A stretch of DNA of 25,897 nt from a virus (taxonomy: Duplodnaviria; Heunggongvirae; Uroviricota; Caudoviricetes): IMG/VR virus record IMGVR_UViG_2698536403_000009. One strand, given 5' to 3'. Every line of letters starts with the position of its first letter. Within the stretch, counting starts at the first letter, position 1. A model generated the notes under the pieces. The model did no database searches, was not told where the DNA came from, and worked only from the letters and a program-made list of their open reading frames with translations. The translations under genes were made by a program, and so were the position numbers. Of the stretch, positions 1 through 17,396 are shown one piece after another.

Positions 1-510
1 GTGGCTACGCAGACTGAAGTTGCCAGGCATTTAAGTCTGACCGATCGCCAGCTTCGCAGATTGCAGAAATTGCCGGGTGCCCCGATATCGAATAAGCGAG
101 GGCAACTGGATCTGGATGCCTGGCGCGATTTTTACATATCGTATCTGAGGAGAAGTAAAAACGATGTGCCTGATGGCGATAGCGAAGACGACTATGAGGA
201 GAAATTGCTTATCGCCAGATGGGAACTGACAGCAGAACAGGCTGTTACACAGCAGTTAAAAAATGAGGTGTCAAAAGGAAAACTTATTGACACCGGGTTC
301 TGTATTTTTGCCCTCAGTAAGCTGGCAATGGCGTTATCCAGTACGCTTGATTCCATCCCTTTATCCATGCAGCGACAGTTTCCTGATTTAACACCGCGCC
401 ATCTTGACCATCTGAAAACCCTTATTGCTAAGGGGGCAAATCAGTGTGCGCGGGCAGGGGATAAATTACCGGATTTACTCGATGAATATATCAGAGCAAC
501 AACTGAATAA
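1..510 (+). CDS. nu1: Terminase small subunit (Nu1-like); begins with GTG at window position 1, true start may lie upstream
   Basis: C-terminal half resembles lambda gpNu1 (FCIFALSKLA...LSMQRQFPDL...LLDEYI); N-terminal region looks like the DNA-binding part but is diverged; position immediately upstream of and overlapping the terminase large subunit. Confidence 0.8.
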   Translation: MATQTEVARHLSLTDRQLRRLQKLPGAPISNKRGQLDLDAWRDFYISYLRRSKNDVPDGDSEDDYEEKLLIARWELTAEQAVTQQLKNEVSKGKLIDTGFCIFALSKLAMALSSTLDSIPLSMQRQFPDLTPRHLDHLKTLIAKGANQCARAGDKLPDLLDEYIRATTE

Positions 511-2410
511 TATGGTGGCCGCCGTTTCGGTTGCGCTGCAGCCTCTGGTCAGGGTTGTACCGATGACGGCAGTTGAATGGGCTGACCAGTATTATTATCT
601 GCCTAAAGAATCCTCATACGGTGACGGCGAATGGAAAACGCTGCCGTTCCAGATCGCCATCATGAACAGTATGGGGAATGATCAGATCCGCACTGTTAAT
701 CTGATTAAATCTGCCCGTGTTGGCTATACAAAGATGTTGCTGGGAGTCGCCGGGTATTTTATTGAGCATAAATCCCGAAACAGTCTGCTTTTTCAGCCCA
801 CGGATTCTGCCGCTGAAGATTTTATGAAGTCTCACGTGGAGGCGACGATTCGGGACGTGCCATGCCTGAAAGATCTTTCCCCGTGGCTGGGTCGTAAACA
901 TCGTGACAATACTCTCACGCTGAAACGCTTTTCATCGGGGGTGGGCTTCTGGTGCCTGGGTGGTGCGGCAGCAAAAAACTACCGTGAAAAATCCGTGGAC
1001 GTGGTCTGCTATGACGAACTTTCCTCGTTCGAGCCGGATGTCGAAAAAGAGGGCTCGCCAACCCTGCTGGGGGATAAGCGTATTGAGGGCTCGGTATGGC
1101 CAAAATCCATTCGCGGCTCGACGCCTAAAATAAAAGGCTCCTGCCAGATCGAAAAAGCGGCCAACGAGTCGGCGCATTTCATGCGTTTTTATGTGCCCTG
1201 CCCGCACTGTGGGGAGGCGCAGTATCTGAAATTTGGCGATGAGTCCACGCCTTTTGGCCTTAAATGGGAGAAGGACAGCCCCGAAAGCGTTTTCTACCTC
1301 TGTGAACATCATGGCTGCGTGATCCATCAGTCTGAGCTTGACCAGAGCAACGGGCGGTGGATCTGCGAAAACACGGGGATGTGGACCCGCGACGGTCTGA
1401 CGTTTTTCAGCGCCGCGGATAATGAAATTCCGCCGCCGCGCTCCATCACATTCCATATCTGGACGGCGTACAGTCCGTTCACCACCTGGGTACAGATTGT
1501 CTATGACTGGCTGGATGCACTGAAAGATCCCAACGGCCTGAAAACCTTTGTGAACACCACGCTGGGCGAGACCTGGGAAGAGGCCGTGGGCGAAAAACTC
1601 GATCACCAGGTGCTGATGGATAAGGTTGTGCGTTACACGGCTGCGGTGCCTTCCCGGGTGGTTTATCTGACGGCGGGCATTGACTCGCAGCGAAACCGTT
1701 TTGAGATGTATGTCTGGGGATGGGCTCCGGGAGAGGAAGCCTTTCTGGTGGATAAAATCATCATTATGGGGCGTCCCGATGAGGAAGAGACGCTGTTACG
1801 TGTGGATGTGGCGATCAACAAAAAATACCGCCATGCAGACGGAACCGAAATGACCATTTCCCGTGTCTGCTGGGACACCGGGGGGATCGATGGCGAAATT
1901 GTCTATCAGAGGTCAAAAAAACACGGTGTTTTCCGGGTGCTGCCGGTAAAAGGTGCATCTGTTTATGGCAAGCCGGTGATCACCATGCCAAAAACCCGCA
2001 ATCAGCGGGGCGTGTATCTGTGCGAAGTGGGGACGGACACCGCAAAAGAAATTCTCTATGCCCGTATGAAAGCCGATCCCACGCCTGCGGATGAAGCCAC
2101 GTCGTATGCCATCCGTTTTCCTGATGATCCGGAGATTTTTTCGCAGACAGAGGCGCAGCAACTGGTGGCGGAAGAGCTTGTGGAGAAGTGGGAAAAAGGA
2201 AAGATGCGTCTGCTGTGGGATAACAAAAAGCGGCGTAACGAAGCGCTGGACTGCCTGGTGTATGCCTACGCGGCATTACGTGTGTCCGTGCAACGCTGGC
2301 AGCTTGATCTGGCTGTACTGGCAAAATCCCGGGAAGAAGAGACGACCCGGCCAACCCTGAAAGAACTGGCAGCGAAGCTGTCCGGAGGAGTGAATGGTTA
2401 CAGTCGCTGA
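482..2410 (+). CDS. A: Terminase large subunit
   Basis: Start chosen at ATG 482 (MNISEQQLNN...) by alignment to lambda gpA N-terminus (MNIS...TAVEWAD..YYLPKES); strong similarity along the whole length; overlaps Nu1 stop. The track ORF start at 425 is an upstream in-frame extension. Confidence 0.95.
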   Translation: MNISEQQLNNMVAAVSVALQPLVRVVPMTAVEWADQYYYLPKESSYGDGEWKTLPFQIAIMNSMGNDQIRTVNLIKSARVGYTKMLLGVAGYFIEHKSRNSLLFQPTDSAAEDFMKSHVEATIRDVPCLKDLSPWLGRKHRDNTLTLKRFSSGVGFWCLGGAAAKNYREKSVDVVCYDELSSFEPDVEKEGSPTLLGDKRIEGSVWPKSIRGSTPKIKGSCQIEKAANESAHFMRFYVPCPHCGEAQYLKFGDESTPFGLKWEKDSPESVFYLCEHHGCVIHQSELDQSNGRWICENTGMWTRDGLTFFSAADNEIPPPRSITFHIWTAYSPFTTWVQIVYDWLDALKDPNGLKTFVNTTLGETWEEAVGEKLDHQVLMDKVVRYTAAVPSRVVYLTAGIDSQRNRFEMYVWGWAPGEEAFLVDKIIIMGRPDEEETLLRVDVAINKKYRHADGTEMTISRVCWDTGGIDGEIVYQRSKKHGVFRVLPVKGASVYGKPVITMPKTRNQRGVYLCEVGTDTAKEILYARMKADPTPADEATSYAIRFPDDPEIFSQTEAQQLVAEELVEKWEKGKMRLLWDNKKRRNEALDCLVYAYAALRVSVQRWQLDLAVLAKSREEETTRPTLKELAAKLSGGVNGYSR

Positions 2411-2600
2411 ACTGCAGGTGCTGCGTCAGGCGCGCCTTGATTTATTAACCGGTAAACGGGTGGTGTCTGTCCAGAAAGATGGTCGCAGAATTGAATATAC
2501 GGCAGCTTCTCTGGATGAGCTTAACCGGGCGATCAATGATGCGGAGTCGGTACTGGGGACAACCCGCCGTCGCCGTCGTCCGCTGGGAGTGAGGTTATGA
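2394..2600 (+). CDS. W: Head-tail joining / head completion protein W
   Basis: 68 aa, LLTGKRVVSVQKDGRRIEYTAASL matches lambda gpW; GGAGG RBS; overlaps A stop and B start. Confidence 0.9.
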   Translation: MVTVAELQVLRQARLDLLTGKRVVSVQKDGRRIEYTAASLDELNRAINDAESVLGTTRRRRRPLGVRL

Positions 2601-4189
2601 AACGAACGCCTGTCCTGATTGATGTGAACGGCGTTCCGCTTCGGGAGAGCCTCAGCTACAACGGTGGCGGTGCAGGATTTGGCGGGCAAATGGCAGAGTG
2701 GTTGCCACCCTCGCAGAGTGCCGATGCGGCCCTGCTGCCCGCGTTGCGTCTGGGGAATGCCCGTGCAGATGATCTGGTGCGCAATAACGGAATAGCGGCC
2801 AATGCGGTGGCCCTGCATAAGGATCACATTGTCGGGCATATGTTTCTGATTAGCTACCGTCCGAACTGGCGCTGGCTGGGGATGCGGGAGACCGCGGCAA
2901 AAAGTTTTGTCGATGAGGTGGAGGCGGCCTGGTCAGAATACGCAGAAGGGATGTTTGGTGAGATCGACGTGGAAGGGAAACGCACGTTTACGGAATTTAT
3001 CCGTGAAGGTGTGGGCGTTCATGCGTTTAACGGCGAAATCTTTGTGCAGCCGGTCTGGGATACGGAGAGTACGCAACTGTTTCGTACGCGTTTTAAAGCC
3101 GTGAGTCCGAAACGGGTGGACACGCCAGGACACGGTATCGGGAACCGTTTTCTGCGGGCCGGTGTGGAGGTCGATCGATATGGCCGTGCCGTTGCGTACC
3201 ATATCTGTGAGGATGATTTTCCTCGCTCCGGGAGTGGACGATGGGAACGGATCCCGCGTGAACTACCCACCGGGCGTCCGGCCATGCTGCATATTTTCGA
3301 GCCGGTGGAGGACGGGCAGACCCGTGGAGCCAATCAGTTTTACAGCGTTATGGAACGGCTGAAGATGCTGGATTCCCTGCAGGCAACACAGCTTCAGTCG
3401 GCCATAGTGAAGGCGATGTATGCAGCGACGATTGAAAGTGACCTTGATACCGAAAAGGCCTTTGAATATATCGCCGGTGCGCCGCAGGGGCAGAAGGATA
3501 ATCCGCTTATTAATATTCTGGAGAAGTTCTCCACCTGGTATGACACGAATAGCGTGACGCTGGGCGGTGTCAAAATTCCGCACCTTTTCCCCGGTGATGA
3601 TCTGAAACTTCAGACCGCGCAGGATTCAGACAATGGATTTTCGGCGCTTGAACAGGCGCTGCTGCGGTATATCGCCGCCGGTCTTGGCGTTTCCTACGAA
3701 CAGTTGTCCCGTGATTACTCGAAGGTCAGTTATTCAAGTGCCCGCGCATCCGCCAATGAGTCGTGGCGCTATTTTATGGGGCGGCGAAAATTTATTGCGT
3801 CCCGGCTGGCCACGCAGATGTTTTCCTGCTGGCTGGAAGAGGCACTTCTTCGGGGGATTATTCGTCCGCCACGGGCACGTTTTGATTTTTATCAGGCGCG
3901 ATCAGCCTGGTCACGGGCTGAGTGGATTGGAGCCGGAAGAATGGCCATTGACGGGCTCAAGGAGGTTCAGGAATCAGTGATGCGCATTGAGGCCGGACTG
4001 AGCACGTATGAGAAAGAGCTGGCGCTGATGGGCGAGGATTATCAGGACATTTTCCGCCAGCAGGTCAGGGAATCTGCAGAGCGGGAAAAAGCCGGACTCT
4101 CACGTCCGGTGTGGATAGCGCAGGCGTATCAGCAGCAGATAGCGGAGAGTCGCAGGCCGGAAGAGGAGACAACACCACGTGAGACGTAA
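2597..4189 (+). CDS. B: Portal protein
   Basis: 530 aa, similar to lambda gpB along its length; ATGA overlap with W. Confidence 0.95.
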   Translation: MKRTPVLIDVNGVPLRESLSYNGGGAGFGGQMAEWLPPSQSADAALLPALRLGNARADDLVRNNGIAANAVALHKDHIVGHMFLISYRPNWRWLGMRETAAKSFVDEVEAAWSEYAEGMFGEIDVEGKRTFTEFIREGVGVHAFNGEIFVQPVWDTESTQLFRTRFKAVSPKRVDTPGHGIGNRFLRAGVEVDRYGRAVAYHICEDDFPRSGSGRWERIPRELPTGRPAMLHIFEPVEDGQTRGANQFYSVMERLKMLDSLQATQLQSAIVKAMYAATIESDLDTEKAFEYIAGAPQGQKDNPLINILEKFSTWYDTNSVTLGGVKIPHLFPGDDLKLQTAQDSDNGFSALEQALLRYIAAGLGVSYEQLSRDYSKVSYSSARASANESWRYFMGRRKFIASRLATQMFSCWLEEALLRGIIRPPRARFDFYQARSAWSRAEWIGAGRMAIDGLKEVQESVMRIEAGLSTYEKELALMGEDYQDIFRQQVRESAEREKAGLSRPVWIAQAYQQQIAESRRPEEETTPRET

Positions 4190-5684
4190 TCTTTCACACA
4201 TTATTGCCGCAGCATTCAATGAACCGCTGCTTCTGGAGCCCGCCTATGCGCGGGTTTTCTTTTGCGCGCTCGGGCGCGAGATGGGGGCAGCAAGTCTTTC
4301 GGTACCACAACAGCAGGTACAGTTTGATGCTCCCGGAATGCTGGCTGAAACGGACGAGTACATGGCCGGAGGTAAACGACCAGCCCGTGTTTACAGGGTG
4401 GTGAACGGTATTGCTGTACTGCCGGTGACCGGCACGCTGGTGCACCGGCTGGGGGGTATGCGGCCATTTTCCGGAATGACAGGCTATGACGGTATTGTCG
4501 CCTGTCTTCAGCAGGCAATGGCGGATAGCCAGGTGCGGGGCGTACTGCTGGACATTGACAGTCCGGGCGGGCAGGCCGCCGGCGCGTTTGACTGCGCTGA
4601 CATGATTTACCGCCTCCGTCAGCAGAAGCCGGTCTGGGCACTGTGCAATGACACGGCCTGTTCTGCAGCCATGCTGCTGGCGTCGGCCTGCTCCCGACGG
4701 CTGGTTACCCAGACATCCCGTATCGGCTCCATTGGCGTGATGATGAGCCATGTCAGCTATGCCGGTCATCTGGCGCAGGCCGGTGTGGATATCACGCTGA
4801 TTTACTCAGGGACGCACAAGGTGGATGGCAATCAGTTTGAAGCCTTACCGGCAGAGGTTCGCCAGGACATGCAGCAGCGCATTGATGCGGCGCGCCGGAT
4901 GTTTGCCGAAAAAGTGGCCATGTTTACCGGTCTGTCTGTTGATGCCGTCACGGGAACAGAGGCCGCCGTTTTTGAAGGTCAGTCCGGCATTGATGCCGGG
5001 CTGGCGGATGAATTAGTCAATGCGTCGGATGCCATCAGTGTGATGGCCACGGCGCTGAACAGTAATGTCAGAGGAGGCACTATGCCGCAATTAACTGCAA
5101 CGGAAGCCGCCGCGCAGGAGAACCAGCGAGTGATGGGGATCCTGACATGCCAGGAAGCGAAAGGACGTGAACAGCTTGCCACGATGCTGGCAGGACAACA
5201 GGGCATGAGCGTTGAACAGGCCCGGGCGATTCTGGCCGCGGCGGCACCGCAGCAGCCGGTGGCATCCGCGCAGAGTGAAGCCGATCGCATTATGGCGTGT
5301 GAAGAAGCGAACGGTCGTGAACAACTGGCGGCAACGCTGGCGGCGATGCCGGAGATGACGGTGGAAAAAGCCCGCCCGATCCTGGCGGCTGCACCACTGG
5401 CGGATGCCGGGCCCTCACTTCGTGATCAGATCATGGCCCTGGATGAGGCAAAAGGGGCAGAAGCGCAGGCTGAAAAACTGGCGGCCTGCCCGGGAATGAC
5501 CGTGGAGAACGCCCGGGCTGTGCTGGCTGCGGGATCAGGTAAGGCCGAACCGGTCTCTGCATCCACAACCGCCTTGTTTGAACATTTCATGGCGAATCAT
5601 TCACCGGCAGCGGTGCGGGGTGGCGTGTCACAGACGTCAGCAGACGGTGATGCGGACGTGAAAATGCTCATGGCCATGCCATGA
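4179..5684 (+). CDS. C: Prohead protease / minor capsid protein C (S49 ClpP-like peptidase domain plus C-terminal scaffold-like repeats)
   Basis: GTG start after GAGGAG RBS; N-terminal two thirds resemble lambda gpC (LEPAYARVFFCAL, GIAVLPV.GTLV, SIGVMMSH, IYSGTHKVDGN); 501 aa versus about 439 aa in lambda because of extra C-terminal repeats. Confidence 0.9.
   Translation: MRRNLSHIIAAAFNEPLLLEPAYARVFFCALGREMGAASLSVPQQQVQFDAPGMLAETDEYMAGGKRPARVYRVVNGIAVLPVTGTLVHRLGGMRPFSGMTGYDGIVACLQQAMADSQVRGVLLDIDSPGGQAAGAFDCADMIYRLRQQKPVWALCNDTACSAAMLLASACSRRLVTQTSRIGSIGVMMSHVSYAGHLAQAGVDITLIYSGTHKVDGNQFEALPAEVRQDMQQRIDAARRMFAEKVAMFTGLSVDAVTGTEAAVFEGQSGIDAGLADELVNASDAISVMATALNSNVRGGTMPQLTATEAAAQENQRVMGILTCQEAKGREQLATMLAGQQGMSVEQARAILAAAAPQQPVASAQSEADRIMACEEANGREQLAATLAAMPEMTVEKARPILAAAPLADAGPSLRDQIMALDEAKGAEAQAEKLAACPGMTVENARAVLAAGSGKAEPVSASTTALFEHFMANHSPAAVRGGVSQTSADGDADVKMLMAMP
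5082..5684 (+). CDS. nu3: Nu3-like scaffolding protein, in-frame internal start within C (copy 1)
   Basis: AGGAGG 5 nt upstream of ATG 5082, in frame with C; lambda Nu3 is produced the same way; contains three tandem ~40-aa repeats (I..GREQLA...GMTVE.AR.ILAA). Confidence 0.55.
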   Translation: MPQLTATEAAAQENQRVMGILTCQEAKGREQLATMLAGQQGMSVEQARAILAAAAPQQPVASAQSEADRIMACEEANGREQLAATLAAMPEMTVEKARPILAAAPLADAGPSLRDQIMALDEAKGAEAQAEKLAACPGMTVENARAVLAAGSGKAEPVSASTTALFEHFMANHSPAAVRGGVSQTSADGDADVKMLMAMP

Positions 5685-5720
5685 AGTCAGTGCTGACCAT
5701 CAATATGAGGTTTTAACAAA

Positions 5721-6068
5721 ATGGTGACGAAAACCATCACTGAACAGCGTGCGGAAGTACGTATTTTTGCCGGTAATGATCCGGCTCATACCGCCACAGG
5801 CAGCAGCGGGATTTCTTCTGCAACACCGGCTCTGACGCCCCTGATGCCGGATGAAGCCACCGGGAAACTGGTGGTCTGGGATGGACAGAAAGCCGGTAGT
5901 GCGGTTGGCATACTGGTACTGCCGCTTGAAGGCACAGAGACGGTGCTGACCTATTACAAGTCGGGGACCTTTGCGACGGAGGCAATCCGCTGGCCTGACA
6001 GTGTGGATGAACACAAAAAGGCAAATGCCTTTGCCGGTACAGCCCTGAGTCACGCGGCTCTGCCGTAA
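5721..6068 (+). CDS. D: Head decoration protein D (copy 1)
   Basis: 115 aa; NDPAHTATG...TPLM...KLVVWDG...GILV...YYKSGTF matches lambda gpD. Confidence 0.9.
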   Translation: MVTKTITEQRAEVRIFAGNDPAHTATGSSGISSATPALTPLMPDEATGKLVVWDGQKAGSAVGILVLPLEGTETVLTYYKSGTFATEAIRWPDSVDEHKKANAFAGTALSHAALP

Positions 6069-6125
6069 CACGTTATCAGGCCACCATGGCGGCCTGACTG
6101 ATTTCTGAATGAAAGGAACTGATTT

Positions 6126-6413
6126 ATGGGATTGTTTACGACCCGCCAGTTACTCGGTTATACCGAACAAAAAGTGAAATTCCGTGCGCTGTTTCTGGAG
6201 CTGTTTTTCCGCCGTACGGTGAATTTCCACACCGAAGAGGTGATGCTGGACAAAATTACCGGAAAAACGCCGGTGGCGGCCTATGTCTCCCCGATCGTTG
6301 AAGGAAAAGTGCTTCGCCATCGCGGTGGTGAAACCCGCGTGTTACGTCCATACTGCTGGACATTGACAGTCCGGGCGGGCAGGCCGCCGGCGCGTTTGAC
6401 TGCGCTGACATGA
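6126..6413 (+). pseudogene. Truncated major capsid gene fragment (E'), first ~75 codons fused out of frame to C sequence
   Basis: First 75 residues identical to the intact E at 7934; homology to E stops at 6349, then the frame runs into C-derived sequence and terminates at 6413. Confidence 0.8.
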
Positions 6414-7492
6414 TTTACCGCCTCCGTCAGCAGAAGCCGGTCTGGGCACTGTGCAATGACACGGCCTGTTCTGCAGCCATGCTGCTGGCGTCGGCCTGCT
6501 CCCGACGGCTGGTTACCCAGACATCCCGTATCGGCTCCATTGGCGTGATGATGAGCCATGTCAGCTATGCCGGTCATCTGGCGCAGGCCGGTGTGGATAT
6601 CACGCTGATTTATGCCGGGGCGCACAAGGTGGATGGCAATCAGTTTGAAGCGTTGCCGGCAGAGGTTCGCCAGGATATGCAGCAGCGGATTGATGCGGCG
6701 CACCGGATGTTTGCCGAAAAAGTGGCGATGTATACCGGGTTGTCTGTGGATGCGGTCACGGGAACAGAGGCCGCCGTTTTTGAAGGTCAGTCCGGCATTG
6801 AGGCCGGGCTGGCGGATGAATTAATCAATGCGTCGGATGCCATCAGTGTGATGGCCACGGCGCTGAACAGTAATGTCAGAGGAGGCACTATGCCGCAATT
6901 AACTGCAACGGAAGCCGCCGTGCAGGAGAACCAGCGAGTGATGGGGATCCTGACATGCCAGGAAGCGAAAGGACGTGAACAGCTTGCCACGATGCTGGCA
7001 GGACAACAGGGCATGAGCGTTGAACAGGCCCGGGCGATTCTGGCCGCGGCGGCACCGCAGCAGCCGGTGGCATCCGCGCAGAGTGAAGCCGATCGCATTA
7101 TGGCGTGTGAAGAAGCGAACGGTCGTGAACAACTGGCGGCAACGCTGGCGGCGATGCCGGAGATGACGGTGGAAAAAGCCCGCCCGATCCTGGCGGCTGC
7201 ACCACTGGCGGATGCCGGGCCCTCACTTCGTGATCAGATCATGGCCCTGGATGAGGCAAAAGGGGCAGAAGCGCAGGCTGAAAAACTGGCGGCCTGCCCG
7301 GGAATGACCGTGGAGAACGCCCGGGCTGTGCTGGCTGCGGGATCAGGTAAGGCCGAACCGGTCTCTGCATCCACAACCGCCTTGTTTGAACATTTCATGG
7401 CGAATCATTCACCGGCAGCGGTGCGGGGTGGCGTGTCACAGACGTCAGCAGACGGTGATGCGGACGTGAAAATGCTCATGGCCATGCCATGA
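6350..7492 (+). pseudogene. 5'-truncated copy of C (lacks N-terminal ~120 codons and its start); contains an intact Nu3-like ORF
   Basis: Homologous to C from codon ~122 onward; no upstream start or RBS in frame (the track ORF 6410 starts at an internal Met). Confidence 0.75.
6890..7492 (+). CDS. nu3: Nu3-like scaffolding protein (copy 2)
   Basis: Same AGGAGG-ATG start as copy 1 at +1808 offset; intact to the stop at 7492. Confidence 0.5.
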   Translation: MPQLTATEAAVQENQRVMGILTCQEAKGREQLATMLAGQQGMSVEQARAILAAAAPQQPVASAQSEADRIMACEEANGREQLAATLAAMPEMTVEKARPILAAAPLADAGPSLRDQIMALDEAKGAEAQAEKLAACPGMTVENARAVLAAGSGKAEPVSASTTALFEHFMANHSPAAVRGGVSQTSADGDADVKMLMAMP

Positions 7493-7528
7493 AGTCAGTG
7501 CTGACCATCAATATGAGGTTTTAACAAA

Positions 7529-7876
7529 ATGGTGACGAAAACCATCACTGAACAGCGTGCGGAAGTACGTATTTTTGCCGGTAATGATCCGGCTCATACC
7601 GCCACAGGCAGCAGCGGGATTTCTTCTGCAACACCGGCTCTGACGCCCCTGATGCCGGATGAAGCCACCGGGAAACTGGTGGTCTGGGATGGACAGAAAG
7701 CCGGTAGTGCGGTTGGCATACTGGTACTGCCGCTTGAAGGCACAGAGACGGTGCTGACCTATTACAAGTCGGGGACCTTTGCGACGGAGGCAATCCGCTG
7801 GCCTGACAGTGTGGATGAACACAAAAAGGCAAATGCCTTTGCCGGTACAGCCCTGAGTCACGCGGCTCTGCCGTAA
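7529..7876 (+). CDS. D: Head decoration protein D (copy 2)
   Basis: Protein identical to copy 1. Confidence 0.85.
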   Translation: MVTKTITEQRAEVRIFAGNDPAHTATGSSGISSATPALTPLMPDEATGKLVVWDGQKAGSAVGILVLPLEGTETVLTYYKSGTFATEAIRWPDSVDEHKKANAFAGTALSHAALP

Positions 7877-7933
7877 CACGTTATCAGGCCACCATGGCGG
7901 CCTGACTGATTTCTGAATGAAAGGAACTGATTT

Positions 7934-8962
7934 ATGGGATTGTTTACGACCCGCCAGTTACTCGGTTATACCGAACAAAAAGTGAAATTCCGTGCGCTGT
8001 TTCTGGAGCTGTTTTTCCGCCGTACGGTGAATTTCCACACCGAAGAGGTGATGCTGGACAAAATTACCGGAAAAACGCCGGTGGCGGCCTATGTCTCCCC
8101 GATCGTTGAAGGAAAAGTGCTTCGCCATCGCGGTGGTGAAACCCGCGTGTTACGTCCGGGCTACGTCAAGCCCAAACACGAATTTAATTACCAGCAGGCG
8201 GTTGAGCGCCTTCCTGGTGAAGATCCGGCTCAGCTGAACGACCCGGCCTACCGTCGTCTGCGTATCATTACCGATAACCTCAAACAGGAAGAGCACGCCA
8301 TTGTCCAGGTGGAAGAAATGCAGGCGGTGAATGCCGTGCTGTATGGCAAATACACCATGGAAGGGGATCAGTTTGACACGGTTGAGGTGGATTTCGGGCG
8401 CTCTGAAGGAAATAACATTGAGCAGGCTGACGGTAAAAAATGGTCTGAGCAGGACCGTGATACGTTTGATCCGACGCATGATATTGACCTCTACTGCGAT
8501 CAGGCCAGCGGCCTTGTGAATATCGCCATTATGGACGGTACGGTCTGGCGTCTGCTGAATGGCTTTAAGCTGTTCCGCGAAAAACTGGATACCCGTCGCG
8601 GCTCAAATTCACAACTCGAAACGGCAGTGAAAGATCTGGGCGCAGTGGTGTCCTTCAAGGGGTATTACGGCGATCTGGCCATTGTGGTGGCGAAAACGTC
8701 TTATGTGGCAGAGGACGGTACCGAAAAACGTTATCTGCCGGAGGGCATGCTGGTGCTGGGGAATACGGCGGCAGAGGGGATTCGTTGCTATGGAGCCATT
8801 AAGGATGCACAGGCGTTGTCTGAAGGAGTGGTGGCTTCTTCCCGTTACCCGAAACACTGGCTGACCGTGGGCGATCCGTCCTGTGAATTCACCATGACGC
8901 AGTCCGCTCCGCTGATGGTGCTGCCGGATCCTGATGAGTTTGTGGTGGTACAGGTGAAATAA
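7934..8962 (+). CDS. E: Major capsid protein E (intact copy)
   Basis: 342 aa; similar to lambda gpE throughout (YVSPIV.G.V...GG, PGYVKPKHE, DPAYRR.RII, RRGSNS.LETAVKDLG, SAPLM.L.DPDEFV); AAGGA RBS. Confidence 0.95.
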   Translation: MGLFTTRQLLGYTEQKVKFRALFLELFFRRTVNFHTEEVMLDKITGKTPVAAYVSPIVEGKVLRHRGGETRVLRPGYVKPKHEFNYQQAVERLPGEDPAQLNDPAYRRLRIITDNLKQEEHAIVQVEEMQAVNAVLYGKYTMEGDQFDTVEVDFGRSEGNNIEQADGKKWSEQDRDTFDPTHDIDLYCDQASGLVNIAIMDGTVWRLLNGFKLFREKLDTRRGSNSQLETAVKDLGAVVSFKGYYGDLAIVVAKTSYVAEDGTEKRYLPEGMLVLGNTAAEGIRCYGAIKDAQALSEGVVASSRYPKHWLTVGDPSCEFTMTQSAPLMVLPDPDEFVVVQVK

Positions 8963-8970
8963 TCCGTGAG

Positions 8971-8999
8971 CGGGGGCGAAATGCCCCCGTGTCTTTTTT
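8971..8999 (+). terminator. Intrinsic terminator-like hairpin after E
   Basis: 7-bp GC stem cgggggc/gcccccg (8971-8977 / 8983-8989), loop gaaat, followed by tgtcttttttc. Confidence 0.55.
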
Positions 9000-9013
9000 C
9001 ACAGGAGGCTGAG

Positions 9014-9397
9014 ATGGCAACAAAAGAAGAAAATCTGAATCGTCTTCGTCAACTGGCTGGCCTGCTGGGGCGCGAGGCGGATATGTCGGGGAGTGCTGCG
9101 GATATTGCTCAACGTGTGTCTGAGTGGGAAGAGGAGCTTGCTGTTTCCCCGGAGGGCATTATGCACTCTGATGAGAGCGGGGCTGATCAAAATCACACAG
9201 ACGATGGTGAGCAGTTGAACAACACGGATGCTCCGGATGATGTTAAAGCCGTCCGGGTACGGAAGTGCCTGCAAGTAATGGGGTATTGCCCGGAGACAGG
9301 TCGTCCCGTTGAGCTGGCGTTACGGGGTATGCGTGTTCTGGTGCCATCATCACTGGCAACGGCCATGATACAGCACGGAACGGCTGAATATGCGTGA
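9014..9397 (+). CDS. FI: DNA packaging protein FI
   Basis: Start ATG 9014 after AGGAGG; acidic middle region and position between E and FII as in lambda; weaker sequence match than neighbours. Confidence 0.8.
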   Translation: MATKEENLNRLRQLAGLLGREADMSGSAADIAQRVSEWEEELAVSPEGIMHSDESGADQNHTDDGEQLNNTDAPDDVKAVRVRKCLQVMGYCPETGRPVELALRGMRVLVPSSLATAMIQHGTAEYA

Positions 9398-9743
9398 TTT
9401 TCAGAATGCCTTTGATGCTGCCCTTGCCGGGGTGGACAGTACGATCGTTGAAGTGATGGGGATCCGTGCGCAGTTCACCTCCGGAGCACAACGTGGCGGC
9501 GAAGTTCAGGGGGTTTTTGACGATCCGGAGTCGCTGGGTTTTGCCGGTGGCGGGGTCCGTATTGAAGGAAGCAGCCCGTCATTATTTGTGCGGACGGATA
9601 CGGTGCGTGCCGTGCGGCGTGGTGACACGCTGACCATTAACGGCGAGATGTTCTGGGTGGATCGTGTTTCTCCGGATGACAGGGGAAGCTGTTATCTCTG
9701 GCTCAACCGTGGGCAACCCCCCGCAGTTAACCGGCGACGATAA
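9390..9743 (+). CDS. FII: Head-tail joining protein FII
   Basis: 117 aa; GVFDDPE...GSSPSLFVRTD.VR..RRGDTLTI....FWVDRVSPDD.GSC.LWL.RG.PPAVNRRR matches lambda gpFII. Confidence 0.9.
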   Translation: MRDFQNAFDAALAGVDSTIVEVMGIRAQFTSGAQRGGEVQGVFDDPESLGFAGGGVRIEGSSPSLFVRTDTVRAVRRGDTLTINGEMFWVDRVSPDDRGSCYLWLNRGQPPAVNRRR

Positions 9744-9758
9744 ACGCAGGGTGAAATT

Positions 9759-10334
9759 ATGGCGATAAAAGGGCTTGCTCAGGCGATTGATAATCTGAGC
9801 CGGGTTCGTAAAAACGCCATTCCGGCGGCTTCAGCAATGACGATTAACCGCGTGGCCACAACGGCGATTAATCAGTCTTCATCACAGGTTGCCCGGGAAA
9901 CCAGGGTGAGACGGAAACTGGTAAAGGAACGGTCCAGACTGAAACGGGCCACGGTCAGAAATCCGAATGCAAAAATTATCGTTAACCGCGGTGATCTTCC
10001 TGTGATTAAGCTGGGGATCAGAATGCTGGGGCGTCGTCCGGACAGCATACTCAAAGCCGGTCAGCATCGTTATCAGCGGGCATTTATCCAGCGATTAAAT
10101 AATGGGCGCTGGCATGTTATGCAACGTCTTCCCCAGGCCAGATATGAGAAGGGCAATGACGACAAGGGCAGGAAAAAGCGTAATCGCCTTCCTATTCAGG
10201 TGGTGAAAATCCCGATGGCGGCCCCACTGAAACAGGCGTTTGATGAAAACGTTGACCGTATCCGGCGTGAACGTCTGCCCGGAGAACTGGCATACGCGCT
10301 GAAACAACAGCTGAGGATTGCGATAAAACGATGA
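9759..10334 (+). CDS. Z: Minor tail protein Z
   Basis: 191 aa; MAIKGL.QA..NLSR...INRVA...VARET.VRRKLVKER.RLKRATV...GRWHVMQR...IPMA.PL...RIRRERLP.EL.YAL matches lambda gpZ. Confidence 0.9.
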   Translation: MAIKGLAQAIDNLSRVRKNAIPAASAMTINRVATTAINQSSSQVARETRVRRKLVKERSRLKRATVRNPNAKIIVNRGDLPVIKLGIRMLGRRPDSILKAGQHRYQRAFIQRLNNGRWHVMQRLPQARYEKGNDDKGRKKRNRLPIQVVKIPMAAPLKQAFDENVDRIRRERLPGELAYALKQQLRIAIKR

Positions 10335-10726
10335 AACATACTGATATCCGTGCGGCAGTGCTGGATGCACTCGAGCAGCATGAACACGGGGCGACGCTGT
10401 TTGATGGTCGCCCCGTTGTTTTTGACGAAGAGGATTTTCCTGCGATCGCGGTTTATCTGACGGATGCAGAGTATACCGGTGAAGAGCTGGATGCAGATAC
10501 CTGGCGGGCCACACTGCATATTGAGGTGTTTTTACCGGCACAGGTACCGGATTCGGAGCTGGATTCGTGGATGGAAAGCCGGATTTATCCGGCGATGACC
10601 GCGATCCCGGCACTGGCAGGACTGATTACCACGATGGTTACGCAGGGCTATGAGTATCGTCGTGATGACGATATGGCGTTATGGAGTTCTGCAGATCTGA
10701 CTTATTCCATTACATACGAGATGTGA
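10331..10726 (+). CDS. U: Minor tail protein U (tail terminator)
   Basis: 131 aa, nearly colinear with lambda gpU ([44 protein letters not shown]). Confidence 0.9.
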
Positions 10727-10733
10727 GGACGAT

Positions 10734-11486
10734 ATGGCAACACCAAATCCCCTTGAGCCGGTAAAAGGTGCCGGTACCACTCTGTGGGTTTATAACGGCA
10801 AGGGTGACGCCTATGCAAACCCGTTGTCAGACGATGACTGGCAGCGACTGGCTAAGGTGAAGGATCTGACGCCGGGCGAGATGACGGCAGAATCCTACGA
10901 TGATAACTATCTGGATGATGAAGACGCGGACTGGACCGCGACCGGGCAGGGTCAGAAATCTGCGGGTGACACCAGTTTTACGCTGGCCTGGAAGCCGGGA
11001 GAGGAAGGTCAGAAAGGGCTTATAGGCTGGTTTGAAAGCGGGGATGTGCGGGCCTATAAAATCCGTTTTCCGAACGGCACGGTGGATGTGTTTCGTGGCT
11101 GGGTCAGCAGTATCGGTAAGGCCGTGACGGCGAAAGAAGTGATCACCCGCACGGTGAAAGTGACCAACGTGGGCAAACCTTCTGTAGCGGAAGAACGCAG
11201 CAAAATTACGCCGGTCACTGCGATTAAGGTGACGCCGACATCCGGTACGGTGGCAAAAGGGAAAACAACCACCCTGACGGTTTCTTTTGAGCCGGAAAGT
11301 GCAACCGACAAGACGTTCAGAGCGGTTTCCGCCGATCCGTCGAAAGCCACCATTAGTGTGAAAGATATGACAATTACGGTAAACGGCGTGGCGACAGGTA
11401 AGGTGCAGATCCCTGTGGTGAGCGGAAATGGTCAGTTCGCCGCAGTGGCTGAAGTCACCGTTACTGAAGCGGGCGCTGCAGGGTAA
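10734..11486 (+). CDS. V: Major tail protein V
   Basis: 250 aa; [71 protein letters not shown] matches lambda gpV. Confidence 0.95.
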
Positions 11487-11499
11487 ACGGAGGTCATAC

Positions 11500-11931
11500 A
11501 TGTTTCTGAAAACAGAACAATTTGAATATAACGGTGTGTCCGTCACGCTTTCCGAATTGTCTGCGCTGCAGCGTATTGAGCATCTTGCCCTCCTGAAACG
11601 GCGTGCAGAACAGGCAGAATCCAGCGGCAACCTGCAGGTAAGCGTGGAAGATCTCGTCAGAACCGGCGCGTTTCTGGTGGCGATGTCCCTGTGGCATAAC
11701 CATCCGCAGAAAACGGGGTCACCGTCAATGAATGAGGCTGTGATGCAGATTGAGCAGGAAGTCCTGACCACCTGGCCTGCGGATGCCATTGCCCGGGCGG
11801 AAAATGTGGTGTTGCGTCTGTCCGGGATGAGCGGGCCTGTTCATGTGGATACGGATATTACCGAAGTGGCGAAAAATAACGCGCTGACTGATGATGATTT
11901 TTCTGCGGGAAAGTCTTCGACGGCGAGCTGA
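11500..11931 (+). CDS. G: Tail assembly chaperone G
   Basis: Start ATG 11500 after ACGGAGG; MFLKTE.FE.NGV.VTLSELSALQRIEHLAL.KR.AEQAES matches lambda gpG; the track ORF 11428 extends upstream into V. Confidence 0.9.
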   Translation: MFLKTEQFEYNGVSVTLSELSALQRIEHLALLKRRAEQAESSGNLQVSVEDLVRTGAFLVAMSLWHNHPQKTGSPSMNEAVMQIEQEVLTTWPADAIARAENVVLRLSGMSGPVHVDTDITEVAKNNALTDDDFSAGKSSTAS

Positions 11932-12371
11932 ATTTTGCCCTCAGACTGGCGCGTGAGATGGGGAGGCCTGACTGGCGCGCCATGCTTGCCGGGATGACAT
12001 CCACCGAATATGCCGACTGGCGACATTTTTACCGCATGCATTATTTTCACGATACCCAGCTGGATATGCATTTTTCCGGGCTGACGTACGCTGTACTCAG
12101 CCTGTTTTTTTGCGATCCGGATATGCATCCCTCTGATTTCAGTCTGCTTGCCCCCCGGCGTGAGGAAGCGCAGACGGAGATGCCGGATGAGGAAAAAATG
12201 CTGATGCAGAAAGCGGCAGGACTTGCCGGAGGCGTCCGGTTTGGTGGGGACGGAGGGCGTGAGATTTTATCGTCTGCGGATGTGGCGGATGTCAGCGAGG
12301 ATGATGTCGCATTAATGATGGCTTCAGCGGGGATTTCCGGAGGTGTGAGATATGTCCCAGCCGGTTGGTGA
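11500..12371 (+). CDS. T: Tail assembly protein G-T fusion produced by programmed -1 ribosomal frameshift (T-frame part 11910-12371)
   Basis: Slippery heptamer G_GGA_AAG at 11907-11913 in the G frame, the same site as lambda G-T; the -1 frame downstream encodes KVFDGEL.FAL.LAREMGRPDWRAMLAGM.STEYADW similar to lambda gpT. Confidence 0.8.
11907..11913 (+). promoter_or_regulatory. G-T -1 frameshift slippery site (GGGAAAG)
   Basis: X_XXY_YYZ heptamer in G frame, followed in the -1 frame by a T homolog. Confidence 0.8.
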
Positions 12372-14931
12372 TCTTGTTATTGACCTGAGTCTGGATGCGG
12401 TCCGTTTCGATGAGCAGATGAGCCGGGTAAGGCGTCATTTTTCCGGACTGGAGACTGACGCCAGAAAAACCGCCAGTGCTGTTGAACAGGGCCTGAGCCG
12501 CCAGGCGTTGGCTGCACAAAAAGCCGGGATTTCCGTCGGGCAGTATAAAGCGGCCATGCGAACCCTGCCCGCACAGTTTACGGATATCGCCACGCAGCTT
12601 GCCGGTGGTCAGAATCCCTGGCTGATCCTGCTGCAACAGGGCGGTCAGGTGAAGGACTCCTTCGGCGGGATGATCCCCATGTTCAGGGGACTTGCCGGTG
12701 CGATCACCCTGCCGATGGTCGGGGTCACCTCGCTGGCGGTGGCGACAGGTGCGCTGGCGTACGCCTGGTACCAGGGGGATTCCACGCTTTCAGCGTTTAA
12801 TAAAACCCTGGTTCTTTCCGGTAATCAGTCCGGACTGACTGCCGATCGCATGCTGACGCTCTCCAGAGCCGGACAGGCCGCAGGGCTGACGTTTAACCAG
12901 GCGAGTGAGTCACTGGCAGCCCTGGTGAATGTCGGTGTGCGTGGTGGTGAACAGTTTGATGCCATCAACCAGAGTGTCGCGCGTTTTGCTTCTGCATCCG
13001 GTGTGGAGGTGGACAAGGTTGCAGAGGCTTTCGGAAAACTGACCACCGACCCGACGTCGGGGCTGATGGCGATGGCGCGCCAGTTCCGTAACGTGACGGC
13101 AGAGCAGATTGCGTATGTTGCGCAGCTGCAGCGTTCCGGTGATGAGGCCGGGGCCTTACAGGCGGCGAACGATGCTGCCACGAAAGGCTTTGATGAGCAG
13201 ACCCGTCGCCTGAAAGAAAACATGGGGACACTGGAGACCTGGGCGGATAAAACAGGGAAGGCATTCAAATCGATGTGGGATGCCATTCTGGATATCGGTC
13301 GTCCTGAGTCCTCAGCGGATATGCTCGCCAGTGCACAGAAGGCATTTGATGAGGCGGATAAAAAATGGCAGTGGTACCAGAGCCGGAGCCAGCGCCGGGG
13401 AAAAACCGCCTCTTTTCGTGCGAACCTTCAGGGTGCATGGGATGACCGGGAAAATGCCCGTCTGGGGCTGGCAGCGGCCACGCTGCAGTCGGATATGGAA
13501 AAAGCCGGTGAACTGGCCGCCAGGGACCGGGCCGAACGGGACGCATCACAGCTGAAGTATACCGGAGAGGCGCAGAAGGCGTATGAGCGTCTGCTGACGC
13601 CGCTGGAGAAATATACCGCCCGTCAGGAAGAACTGAATAAGGCCCTGAAAGACGGGAAAATCCTGCAGGTGGATTACAACACGCTGATGGCGGCGGCGAA
13701 AAAGGATTATGAATCGACGCTGAAAAAGCCGAAGTCGTCAGGAGTCAAAGTGTCAGCCGGTGAGCGCCAGGAAGACCGGGCACATGCTGCCCTGCTGGCG
13801 CTTGAAACTGAGCTCCGGACGCTGGAAAAACACAGCGGTGCGAATGAGAAAATCAGCCAGCAGCGTCGCGATTTATGGAAAGCGGAAAATCAGTATGCGG
13901 TCCTGAAAGAGGCAGCCACGAAACGGCAGTTATCTGAGCAGGAAAAATCCCTGCTGACCCATGAGAAAGAGACGCTGGAGTACAAACGCCAGCTGGCTGA
14001 GCTGGGAGACAAAGTTGAACACCAGAAACGGCTGAATGAGCTGGCACAGCAGGCTGCGCGGTTTGAACAGCAGCAGAGTGCGAAGCAGGCGGCAATCAGC
14101 GCAAAAGCCCGCGGACTCACCGACCGTCAGGCGCAGCGGGAGTCGGAAGAGCAGCGCCTTCGTGACGTGTACGGTGATAATCCGGATGCGCTGGCGAAGG
14201 CCACATCTGCACTGAAGAACACCTGGTCTGCGGAGGAGCAGCTTCGTGGAAGCTGGATGGCCGGTCTGAAGTCCGGCTGGGGCGAGTGGGCAGAAAGTGC
14301 GACGGACAGTTTTTCGCAGGTTAAAAACGCGGCCACGCAGACCTTTGACGGTATTGCACAGAATATGGCGGGGATGCTGACCGGCAGCGAACAGAACTGG
14401 CGTGGTTTCACCCGTTCCGTGCTCTCCATGCTGACAGAGATTTTTCTGAAGCAGGCCATGGTGGGGATTGTCGGGAGTATTGGCAGCGCCATGGGTGGTG
14501 CTTTCGGTGGTGGGGCGTCTGCCTCCACGGGGACGGCCATTCAGGCTGCGGCGGCGAACTTCCATTTTGCGACCGGAGGATTTACGGGAACCGGTGGCAA
14601 ATATGAGCCAGCGGGGATTGTTCACCGTGGTGAATTTGTCTTCACGAAGGAGGCAACCAGCCGGATTGGCGTAGGAAATCTTTACCGGCTGATGCGCGGC
14701 TATGCCACCGGTGGTTATGTCGGTGGCACCGGAAGTCCGGCGCAGATGCGGCGTTCAGAGGGTATCAGATTTGAGCAGAACAACAACGTGGTGATTCAGA
14801 ACGACGGTATCAACGGACAGGCGGGGCCGCAGCTGATGAAGGCGGTGTATGACATGGCCCGCAAGGGGGCACAGGATGAACTCCGGCTGCAGTTGCGTGA
14901 TGGCGGTATGTTATCAGGGAGCGGTGGATGA
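12352..14931 (+). CDS. H: Tail tape measure protein H
   Basis: 859 aa, colinear with lambda gpH (N-term PVGDLV.DLSLDA.RFDEQM.RVRRHFSG; C-term KYEPAGIVHRGEFVFTKEATSRIGVGNLYRLMRGYATGGYVG). Confidence 0.95.
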   Translation: MSQPVGDLVIDLSLDAVRFDEQMSRVRRHFSGLETDARKTASAVEQGLSRQALAAQKAGISVGQYKAAMRTLPAQFTDIATQLAGGQNPWLILLQQGGQVKDSFGGMIPMFRGLAGAITLPMVGVTSLAVATGALAYAWYQGDSTLSAFNKTLVLSGNQSGLTADRMLTLSRAGQAAGLTFNQASESLAALVNVGVRGGEQFDAINQSVARFASASGVEVDKVAEAFGKLTTDPTSGLMAMARQFRNVTAEQIAYVAQLQRSGDEAGALQAANDAATKGFDEQTRRLKENMGTLETWADKTGKAFKSMWDAILDIGRPESSADMLASAQKAFDEADKKWQWYQSRSQRRGKTASFRANLQGAWDDRENARLGLAAATLQSDMEKAGELAARDRAERDASQLKYTGEAQKAYERLLTPLEKYTARQEELNKALKDGKILQVDYNTLMAAAKKDYESTLKKPKSSGVKVSAGERQEDRAHAALLALETELRTLEKHSGANEKISQQRRDLWKAENQYAVLKEAATKRQLSEQEKSLLTHEKETLEYKRQLAELGDKVEHQKRLNELAQQAARFEQQQSAKQAAISAKARGLTDRQAQRESEEQRLRDVYGDNPDALAKATSALKNTWSAEEQLRGSWMAGLKSGWGEWAESATDSFSQVKNAATQTFDGIAQNMAGMLTGSEQNWRGFTRSVLSMLTEIFLKQAMVGIVGSIGSAMGGAFGGGASASTGTAIQAAAANFHFATGGFTGTGGKYEPAGIVHRGEFVFTKEATSRIGVGNLYRLMRGYATGGYVGGTGSPAQMRRSEGIRFEQNNNVVIQNDGINGQAGPQLMKAVYDMARKGAQDELRLQLRDGGMLSGSGG

Positions 14932-15257
14932 AAACCTTTCGCTGGAAAGTGAAGCCGGATATGGAGGTGAACTCGCAGCCGTCGGTGCGTGAAGTGCGTT
15001 TTGGTGACGGGTACTCACAGCGTATGGCGGCAGGGCTGAATGCTGACCTGAAAACATACAGGGTGACGCTTTTCGTGACCCGGGAGGAGGCCCGGCATCT
15101 GGAAGCGTTCCTGGCAGAGCACGGTGGCTGGAAGGCATTTTTGTGGAAGCCACCCTATGCATACCGGCAGATAAAGGTGACCTGTGCCGGGTGGTCTGCG
15201 CGGGTCGGGATGTTGCGCGTTGAGTTCAGCGCGGAGTTTAAGCAGGTGGTGAACTGA
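14928..15257 (+). CDS. M: Minor tail protein M
   Basis: 109 aa, position and size as lambda gpM; ATGA overlap with H. Confidence 0.9.
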   Translation: MKTFRWKVKPDMEVNSQPSVREVRFGDGYSQRMAAGLNADLKTYRVTLFVTREEARHLEAFLAEHGGWKAFLWKPPYAYRQIKVTCAGWSARVGMLRVEFSAEFKQVVN

Positions 15258-15955
15258 TGCAGGATATTCACGAAGAAAGCCTGAACGAGTCGGTTAAATC
15301 AGAGCAGTCACCGCGGGTGGTGCTCTGGGAAATTGACCTGACGGTGCAGGGTGGTGAGCGGTATTTTTTCTGCAATGAGCTGAATGAAAAAGGGGAGGCG
15401 GTTACCTGGCAGGGGCGGCAATATCAGGCATACCCGATTGACGGCAGTGGCTTTGAGATGAACGGGAAGGGCAGCAGTGCCCGCCCGTCGCTGACGGTGT
15501 CGAATCTGTTCGGTCTGGTCACCGGGATGGCGGAGGACCTGCAGAGCCTGGTGGGGGCCACGGTGGTCCGCCGCCGGGTGTATGCCCGTTTTCTGGATGC
15601 GGTGAATTTTGTGGCGGGCAATCCGGAAGCGGACCCGGAGCAGGAGCTGAGCGACCGCTGGGTGGTGGAGCAGATGTCAGAGCTGACGGCCATGACAGCC
15701 TCGTTTGTGCTGGCAACACCGACGGAGACGGACGGAGCGCTGTTTCCCGGTCGCATTATGCTGGCGAATACCTGTATGTGGACCTACCGCTCTGATGAGT
15801 GTGGTTACACGGGCGGGGCTGTGGCGGATGAGTTCGATAAACCCACCACCGATATCCGTAAGGACAGATGCAGCAAGTGCATGCGCGGGTGTGAGATGCG
15901 CGGCATGGTGGCTAATTTTGGCGGTTTCCTTTCCATTAATAAACTTTCGCAGTAA
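15257..15955 (+). CDS. L: Minor tail protein L
   Basis: 232 aa, same size as lambda gpL; C-terminal Cys cluster (CMWTYRSDECGYTGG...CSKCMRGC) typical of gpL. Confidence 0.9.
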   Translation: MQDIHEESLNESVKSEQSPRVVLWEIDLTVQGGERYFFCNELNEKGEAVTWQGRQYQAYPIDGSGFEMNGKGSSARPSLTVSNLFGLVTGMAEDLQSLVGATVVRRRVYARFLDAVNFVAGNPEADPEQELSDRWVVEQMSELTAMTASFVLATPTETDGALFPGRIMLANTCMWTYRSDECGYTGGAVADEFDKPTTDIRKDRCSKCMRGCEMRGMVANFGGFLSINKLSQ

Positions 15956-15965
15956 ATCCCGGTTT

Positions 15966-16709
15966 ATGACACAGACTGAATCAGCGATTCTGGCGCATGC
16001 CCGGCGGTGTGCGCCTGCGGAGTCGTGCGGCTTCGTGGTGAGAACGCCGGAGGGGGAGCGGTATATCCCTTGTGTGAATATCTCTGCAGAGCCGGAGGCG
16101 TATTTTCGTATTGCACCGGAAGACTGGCTGCGGGCAGAGATGCAGGGGGAGATTGTGGCACTGGTCCACAGTCATCCCGGTGGTCTGCCCTGGCTGAGCG
16201 AGGCCGACCGGCGGCTGCAGATAAAAAGTGCACTGTCCTGGTGGCTGGTCTGCCGGGGGGAAATTCATAAATTCCGCTGTGTGCCACATCTGACAGGACG
16301 GCGCTTTGAGCACGGGGTGACGGACTGTTACACGCTGTTCCGGGATGCCTACCATCTGGCGGGAATTGATATGCCGGATTTTGAGCGTGAGGATGACTGG
16401 TGGCGCAACGGTCAGAACCTTTACCTGGACAATATGGCGGTCACCGGCTTTTACCGGGTGCCCCTGTCCTCTGCACAGGCGGGCGATATCCTGCTGTGCT
16501 GCTTTGGCGCATCGGTGGCCAATCATGCCGCCATTTACTGCGGCAACGGTGAACTGCTTCACCATCTGCCTGAACAACTGAGTAAACGGGAGAGGTATTC
16601 CGAAAAATGGCAACGACGAACGCATTCTGTCTGGCGTCACCGCCACTGGCACGCATCTGCCTTCACGGGGATTTACAACGATTTGGCCGCCGCCTCAGCC
16701 TGTATGTGA
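15966..16709 (+). CDS. K: Tail assembly protein K
   Basis: Start ATG 15966 (MTQTESAILAHARRCAPAESCGFVV, nearly identical to lambda gpK N-terminus); the track ORF 15705 is an upstream extension overlapping L. Confidence 0.9.
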   Translation: MTQTESAILAHARRCAPAESCGFVVRTPEGERYIPCVNISAEPEAYFRIAPEDWLRAEMQGEIVALVHSHPGGLPWLSEADRRLQIKSALSWWLVCRGEIHKFRCVPHLTGRRFEHGVTDCYTLFRDAYHLAGIDMPDFEREDDWWRNGQNLYLDNMAVTGFYRVPLSSAQAGDILLCCFGASVANHAAIYCGNGELLHHLPEQLSKRERYSEKWQRRTHSVWRHRHWHASAFTGIYNDLAAASACM

Positions 16710-17287: not shown

Positions 17288-17291
17288 AACA

Positions 17292-17390: not shown

Positions 17391-17396
17391 AGCGAA

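What the first reader, a model, noticed from the sequence alone, without database searches (positions are those of the whole stretch)
4800..6918. Patch of ~18 substitutions in otherwise identical tandem copies (mosaic / gene-conversion signature)
Copy 1 (4800-5110) and copy 2 (6608-6918) differ at about 18 positions over ~310 bp, giving seven aa changes (S/A, T/A, R/H, F/Y, D/E, V/I, A/V), while the rest of the 1808-bp unit looks identical by eye. A recent in-situ duplication would be uniformly identical, so one copy has probably exchanged a patch with a related prophage elsewhere in the genome, or the contig mixes reads from two prophages.
Basis: seen in the sequence. Interest (0 to 1): 0.45.

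Follow-up and report, generated by a model that had tools for sequence, protein, structure and literature searches.

The report
Scaffold join mimicking a tandem duplication
The two "tandem copies" are overlapping contig ends from two different prophages of one E. coli draft genome, joined by a scaffolder across a single unknown base, so the 18-substitution patch is the ordinary allelic difference between those prophages and not gene conversion.

Summary
An offset of 1808 nt aligns 4543-6349 with 6351-8157. There are exactly 18 mismatches, all at 4805-5113, and they give the seven amino-acid changes listed.

The duplication itself is not real. The window is NCBI draft contig CYBH01000014.1 (GCA_001285345.1). 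In that record, window positions 6350 (the "junction") and 22256 are single N. The window shows A at both.

The contig is therefore three pieces joined across 1-N gaps. Deleting 6350-8157 gives 0 mismatches in 7,503 nt to a natural single-copy phage-21-like prophage (L005).

The divergent stretch of copy 2 (6351-6921) belongs to a second element, a deleted prophage remnant next to trpA. Its left half is on another contig of the same assembly, CYBH01000071.1, which ends 87 nt into the repeat. Its right half is window 22257-25897. Joining contig 71, window 6438-6824 and window 22257-25897 gives 6,964/6,964 identity to the same remnant in another strain.

The gene-conversion reading is not. This is an artefact of low interest.

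The parts
1..6349 (+). Scaffold piece a. It is the left part of an intact phage-21-like prophage ('alpha'): Nu1 1-510, terminase A to 2410, W 2394-2600, portal 2597-4189, S49 protease/scaffold C-Nu3 4179-5684, decoration protein 5721-6068, and the first 224 nt of major capsid gene E from 6126.
   Evidence: Pfam hits on the called genes. 96.6% identity to phage 21. Identical to the single-copy natural locus L005 once 6350-8157 is removed.
4805..5113 (+). Patch, alpha allele, in C codons 209-312.
   Evidence: All 18 sites, including the rare 4812 variant, match the single-copy natural prophage L005. The best match in complete genomes is 99.7%.
6350..6350 (.). Single-N scaffold gap in the source record (contig position 6602). 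The window shows it as 'A'. This base is the supposed duplication junction.
   Evidence: Base-by-base comparison of the window with the NCBI record.
6351..6921 (+). Head of scaffold piece b. It is C-gene nt 365-935 of the deleted remnant prophage ('beta*') and carries the second patch allele at 6613-6921.
   Evidence: 0 mismatches to the remnant in L167/L168/L169 and to L001. The first 87 nt repeat the end of contig CYBH01000071.1. The reconstruction is 6964/6964 identical. The allele matches many complete genomes at 100%.
6922..7002 (+). An 81-nt stretch identical in alpha and beta*. Somewhere inside it, piece b switches from beta* sequence to alpha sequence.
   Evidence: Site 5113 (window 6921) carries the beta* allele. 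Site 5195 (window 7003) carries the alpha allele, and the remnant has G there.
7003..22255 (+). The rest of piece b is alpha prophage again: the 3' end of C, D, full E 7934-8962, tail genes, J 17630-21103, lom 21170-21769, and the N-terminal part of the side tail fibre gene from 21834. The stretch 7003-8157 is the same DNA as 5195-6349, written twice.
   Evidence: 0 mismatches between the two stretches. L005 runs straight from 6349 into 8158. Piece b ends one base before a natural A/G polymorphism in the tail-fibre gene.
22256..22256 (.). Second single-N scaffold gap in the source record (contig position 22508). The window shows it as 'A'.
22257..25897 (+). Scaffold piece c. It is the right half of the beta* remnant: C nt 839-1506, the first 31 codons of D, tail fibre C-terminus, tail fibre assembly gene and a methyltransferase (minus strand). 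In the source contig it is followed by yciE/F/G and trpA.
   Evidence: 3642/3642 identical to JHRU01000012.1 over 22256-25897.
23053..23054 (+). Genuine old deletion junction inside the remnant, joining D nt 93 to the middle of the tail fibre gene.
   Evidence: The 143-aa ORF that spans it is found with exactly the same sequence on 8 contigs from several assemblies.

Best explanation
The window is a scaffold of three contig pieces from a short-read draft E. coli assembly. The genome carries two related lambdoid elements. One is an intact phage-21-like prophage (alpha). The other is a deleted remnant (beta*) next to trpA that keeps the C protease/scaffold gene.

The two C genes are identical over long stretches and differ at scattered sites, which include 4542, the 18 patch sites and 5195. 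The assembler produced one contig that runs through alpha's C, D and the start of E and ends at 6349. It produced a second contig that starts at the first shared base after the 4542 difference, follows beta* reads through the patch, and then follows alpha reads from an 81-nt identical stretch onward.

The two contigs overlap by 1,807 nt. The scaffolder placed them head to tail with one N between them instead of merging them. That created an apparent 1,808-nt tandem repeat whose only differences are the alpha-versus-beta* alleles. The same happened at 22256, where the remnant's right half was attached after alpha's tail-fibre gene.

Shown directly: the two Ns, the identity of each piece, and the presence of the remnant's left half on another contig of the same assembly. 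Inferred: which program did this, and why piece b switches element.
For: 1. The source was identified as GCA_001285345.1, contig CYBH01000014.1. Window 6350 and 22256 are single N there, and these are the only differences found between window and record.
2. Removing 6350-8157 gives 0 mismatches in 7,503 nt to the natural single-copy locus L005. All matches in 1,863 E. coli genomes and 19 phage records span a single copy.
3. The junction is contiguous in none of 5,426 complete E. coli genomes. Its 31-mer, read with A at 6350 as in the window, has no exact match in the genome, viral or metagenome contig collections.
4. Contig CYBH01000071.1 of the same assembly carries the remnant's left half and ends at C coordinate 4629. 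It overlaps the start of piece b by 87 nt.
5. Contig 71 + window 6438-6824 + window 22257-25897 is 6964/6964 identical, without gaps, to the contiguous remnant in JHRU01000012.1. It is 99.97% identical to CYBX01000015.1.
6. Pieces b and c start exactly one base after sites where alpha and beta* differ (4542 and 5016). Assembly-graph repeat nodes begin at such positions.
Against: The left side of the first join (6349) does not coincide with any polymorphism or mosaic boundary in the 83 natural loci examined. Why piece a stops there is therefore unexplained.

Piece b changes from beta* to alpha inside only 81 identical nt. The 87-nt contig overlap hints at a k-mer longer than that, and a pure single-k de Bruijn assembler should then not make that switch. 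The assembly pipeline is unknown and no paper was found. No reads were available.
Confidence: 0.9

Rival explanations
1. A real in-situ tandem duplication of C'-D-E' in the prophage, followed by gene conversion of about 300-770 nt of one copy from a related prophage.
For: The 18 differences are tightly clustered and the rest of the unit is identical. Both alleles are natural haplotypes, and the patch sites are reshuffled among natural prophages.
Against: The junction base is an N, so no sequenced molecule joins the copies. The junction is found nowhere else. The distinctive tract of copy 2 fits exactly between two other pieces of a remnant prophage in the same assembly. A second identical-looking N join lies in the same contig.
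Confidence: 0.03
2. The scaffold joins are artefacts, but the switch from beta* to alpha inside piece b (between 6921 and 7003) is a genuine recombinant C gene. The genome would then hold a real beta*/alpha hybrid element in addition to alpha and beta*.
For: The switch lies within only 81 identical nt, whereas the 87-nt overlap between contig 71 and piece b suggests a longer k-mer. Homologous exchange among lambdoid prophages is common, and the natural haplotypes are highly shuffled.
Against: Two left ends (alpha, contig 71) and two right ends (alpha tail genes, remnant right half) already account for every piece. A hybrid would need a third copy of the left part that is not seen. The remnant reconstructs perfectly without it.
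Confidence: 0.06
3. Both joins are real illegitimate recombination junctions with 1-nt microhomology between the incoming phage and the resident remnant, and the N is a coincidental low-quality base.
For: If the N is read as the remnant's allele, each junction has a 1-nt match (C at 6349; A at 22256, which natural tail-fibre genes also have).
Against: Two isolated Ns fall exactly at the two anomalous joins. Both right-hand pieces begin immediately after alpha/beta* differences, which would happen by chance about 0.2-0.6% of the time. The flows do not balance once contig 71 is counted.
Confidence: 0.01

Closest known systems
False tandem duplications created when a scaffolder abuts overlapping contig ends (negative estimated gap, minimal N placeholder)
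   Same: A single N sits at the join. The sequences on each side are redundant. Collapsing the repeat restores the natural gene order. The right-hand contigs start at repeat boundaries.
   Different: The two overlapping ends are not pure copies of one locus. The head of the second contig was assembled from a different prophage, and that produces the patch. From my own recollection, not checked here, SSPACE writes a single 'n' when contigs seem to overlap but no overlap is found. The pipeline used for this assembly is unknown.
Head-gene module of phage 21 / lambda (C-Nu3 S49 protease-scaffold, D/SHP decoration protein, E major capsid protein)
   Same: Same gene order, 96.6% nucleotide identity to phage 21, and Pfam hits PF01343, PF02924 and PF03864.
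   Different: Nothing functional differs. The true locus is single-copy.
Mosaicism and gene conversion among co-resident lambdoid prophages of E. coli
   Same: Two related elements in one genome share long identical stretches interrupted by allelic blocks. In the natural population, the 18 patch sites fall into about 16 different haplotypes among 83 loci.
   Different: No exchange between the two elements of this genome needs to be invoked. The alpha copy equals an unrearranged natural prophage, and the beta* tract equals the unrearranged remnant.

Membership tests
Real tandem duplication with a converted patch | A sequenced, continuous junction between the end of copy 1 and the start of copy 2 | tested here: not met
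   The junction base is N in the source record.
Real tandem duplication with a converted patch | The junction is reproducible in independent sequences | tested here: not met
   0 of 5,426 complete E. coli genomes hold it contiguously. There is no exact match in three contig collections. The junction ORF is on record only for this contig.
Real tandem duplication with a converted patch | Doubled read depth and junction-spanning reads | not testable with these tools
   No read data are available.
Scaffolding artefact (overlapping contigs abutted) | A gap character at the join in the deposited record | tested here: met
   Single N at contig positions 6602 and 22508.
Scaffolding artefact (overlapping contigs abutted) | Removing the redundancy restores a known natural arrangement | tested here: met
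   0 mismatches in 7,503 nt to L005 after deleting 6350-8157.
Scaffolding artefact (overlapping contigs abutted) | The foreign-looking tract is accounted for by another element of the same genome | tested here: met
   Contig 71 + 6438-6824 + 22257-25897 is 6964/6964 identical to the remnant in JHRU01000012.1.
Scaffolding artefact (overlapping contigs abutted) | Contig ends lie at assembly-graph branch points | tested here: inconclusive
   The starts of pieces b and c (4543, 5017) and the end of piece b (22255) lie next to polymorphic sites. The end of piece a (6349) does not.
Phage 21/lambda-type head module | S49 protease-scaffold, decoration and major capsid genes in that order, downstream of terminase, W and portal | tested here: met
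   Precomputed Pfam hits and gene order. Annotated matches in phages and genomes.

The most novel reading that the evidence does not exclude
The switch from remnant-type to intact-phage-type sequence inside the second piece (6921 to 7003) could be a real recombinant C gene. That would mean an intact phage-21-like prophage and a resident deleted remnant have exchanged sequence in this strain. Less likely still, the head-to-tail arrangement physically exists.
Probability: 0.06. Interest if true: 0.25.

Novelty: not a real feature. Interest (0 to 1): 0.05.

Why it matters
It has little biological importance. Its value is as a caution. A clustered-substitution "gene conversion signature" between apparent tandem repeats in a draft genome can be produced entirely by a scaffolder joining contigs from two co-resident prophages. 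Turning N into A when windows are prepared hides the one character that would have given this away. Scans of draft assemblies should keep or flag N positions.

Tried and rejected
1. I first read the base at 6350 as a 1-nt filler. I then read it as the natural 4542-A variant (24 of 83 natural loci). On that reading I built template-switch and homology-facilitated illegitimate-recombination models in which copy 2 began with remnant DNA. Both were dropped when the base proved to be N in the source.

2. I tried to infer the assembler's k-mer from the overlap between contig 71 and the window. The 87-nt overlap, or 89 nt counting the two adjacent bases, is compatible with several assemblers and decides nothing.

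3. I looked for a natural polymorphism or mosaic boundary that would explain why piece a ends at 6349. None was found.

4. I tried three times to fetch the rest of the L005 contig with the tape-measure, tail-fibre and J proteins.

5. A literature search for the assembly accessions found nothing. Two scaffolding papers did not document the single-N convention.

6. Tandem Repeats Finder reports nothing, because the period exceeds its 500-nt limit.

Full report
**Observation.** A gapless self-comparison at offset 1808 aligns window 4543-6349 with 6351-8157. There are 18 mismatches, all between 4805 and 5113, and none in the remaining ~1,500 nt. The other eleven are synonymous. Clustering this tight is far beyond chance (about 2e-12). 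The repeat finder also showed a third partial copy at 22256-23053.

**What the region is.** The window is the head and tail region of a phage-21-like lambdoid prophage of E. coli. The genes run in this order:
- terminase, W and portal;
- S49 protease/scaffold (the lambda C/Nu3 equivalent);
- decoration protein and major capsid protein;
- tail genes, J and lom;
- the start of the side tail fibre gene.

This rests. Every matching record among 1,863 E. coli genomes and 19 phage records spans 2,214 nt, which is one copy. A 300-nt probe across the copy boundary is contiguous in none of 5,426 complete genomes. The 31-mer across the boundary, read with A at 6350 as in the window, is absent from the genome, viral and metagenome contig collections.

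**Both patch alleles are natural.** The copy-2 allele matches many complete genomes at 100%. The copy-1 allele matches at 99.7%. Among 83 natural loci the 18 sites occur in about 16 different combinations, so this stretch of the gene is reshuffled in nature. One natural locus, L005 from IMG/VR, is single-copy. It is identical to the window once the second copy is removed: 0 mismatches in 7,503 nt, including all 18 copy-1 alleles.

**The source and the second element.** Looking up the 95-aa ORF that crosses the copy boundary identified the window as NCBI draft contig CYBH01000014.1 of assembly GCA_001285345.1, positions 253 onward.

Looking up the ORF that crosses the right end of the third copy found the same ORF on eight contigs. 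On the four long contigs examined, this one included, it lies next to yciE/F/G and trpA. In the three sister assemblies (CYBX01000015.1, CYFI01000034.1, JHRU01000012.1) it is part of a deleted prophage remnant with this structure:
- a truncated terminase gene and W;
- a portal gene lacking the equivalent of 2737-4237;
- a C gene;
- 31 codons of the decoration gene fused to the middle of a tail fibre gene.

Window 22256-25897 is 3642/3642 identical to that remnant. The distinctive part of copy 2 (6351-6921) also matches it without a mismatch.

The same assembly as the window has a separate 5,159-nt contig, CYBH01000071.1. It carries the remnant's left half and stops at C coordinate 4629, 87 nt into the repeat. 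Joining contig 71, window 6438-6824 and window 22257-25897 gives a sequence that is 6964/6964 identical, without gaps, to the contiguous remnant in JHRU01000012.1.

**The decisive point.** A base-by-base comparison of the window with the NCBI record shows only two differences in the parts compared (1-16413 and 16961-25897). Window 6350 and window 22256 are 'N' in the record and 'A' in the window. These are exactly the two anomalous joins. The deposited contig is therefore a scaffold of three pieces: 1-6349, 6351-22255, and 22257 onward. The pieces are joined across one-base gaps.

Pieces two and three begin one base after sites where the two elements differ (4542 and 5016), as repeat nodes of an assembly graph do. 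Piece two ends one base before a natural A/G polymorphism in tail fibre genes.

**Explanation.** The genome holds an intact prophage (alpha) and a remnant (beta*) whose C genes share long identical stretches.
- Piece one is alpha up to E nt 224.
- Piece two starts in the shared stretch after site 4542. It follows the remnant's reads through the patch. From the 81-nt identical stretch 6922-7002 onward it follows alpha.
- The tail of piece one and the head of piece two therefore overlap by 1,807 nt.

Instead of merging them, the scaffolder set them head to tail with one N. The "tandem duplication" is this redundancy. The "patch" is the difference between the two elements' C genes. The identity of the remainder reflects the same alpha DNA written twice. 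The third copy is simply the remnant's own C gene, attached after alpha's tail fibre gene by the second N join.

**Remaining loose ends.** The end of piece one (6349) does not sit at any polymorphism or mosaic boundary seen in natural loci. The switch of piece two from remnant to alpha within 81 nt is hard to reconcile with the longer k-mer hinted at by the 87-nt contig overlap. I could not identify the assembly pipeline. These points leave a small chance (about 6%) that a genuine hybrid C gene exists in this strain. The chance that the head-to-tail arrangement is physical is smaller still.

**Verdict.** The gene-conversion reading is not. Interest is low.

Noticed in passing
window 6350 and 22256: Both positions are 'N' in the deposited NCBI record but 'A' in the window. 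Ambiguous bases were turned into A when the window was prepared, which hides scaffold gaps from a sequence-only reader. The stretch 16414-16960 was not compared with the record.
   Followed up: yes
window 22257-25897; L251, L252, L253, L254: A deleted lambdoid prophage remnant sits next to yciE/F/G-trpA and is conserved at 99.97-100% over the aligned 5-7 kb in four E. coli assemblies. It has two internal deletions: the portal gene (equivalent of 2737-4237) and the decoration gene nt 93 joined to mid tail fibre (23053|23054).
   Followed up: partly
L170 (Logan SRR18080539_82): This contig has the same decoration-gene/tail-fibre deletion junction but an intact portal gene and a full-length C gene. 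The tail-side deletion therefore appears older than the portal deletion.
   Followed up: no
window 22961-23392: A 143-aa ORF is called as a gene in several assemblies. It consists of 31 codons of the decoration gene followed by an Arg/Pro-rich stretch that looks like an out-of-frame reading of tail fibre sequence. It is probably not a real protein.
   Followed up: partly
window 24387-24583 and 25436-25632: Direct repeats of 197 nt at 88% identity flank a minus-strand methyltransferase gene (24618-25286). They overlap tail-fibre-assembly-like ORFs (23979-24563 and 25343-25612).
   Followed up: no
window 23363-23481 and 23495-23613: Two adjacent 119-nt direct repeats at 76% identity lie inside the tail fibre C-terminal ORF.
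   Followed up: no
window 4805-5113 compared with L001-L084: In natural prophages the 18 patch sites occur in about 16 haplotypes among 83 loci, with visible sub-blocks. This part of the S49 protease gene is a genuine recombination mosaic at the population level.
   Followed up: partly
window 6921-7003: Scaffold piece b changes from remnant-type to intact-phage-type sequence within 81 identical nt. How the assembler made this switch is unexplained.
   Followed up: partly
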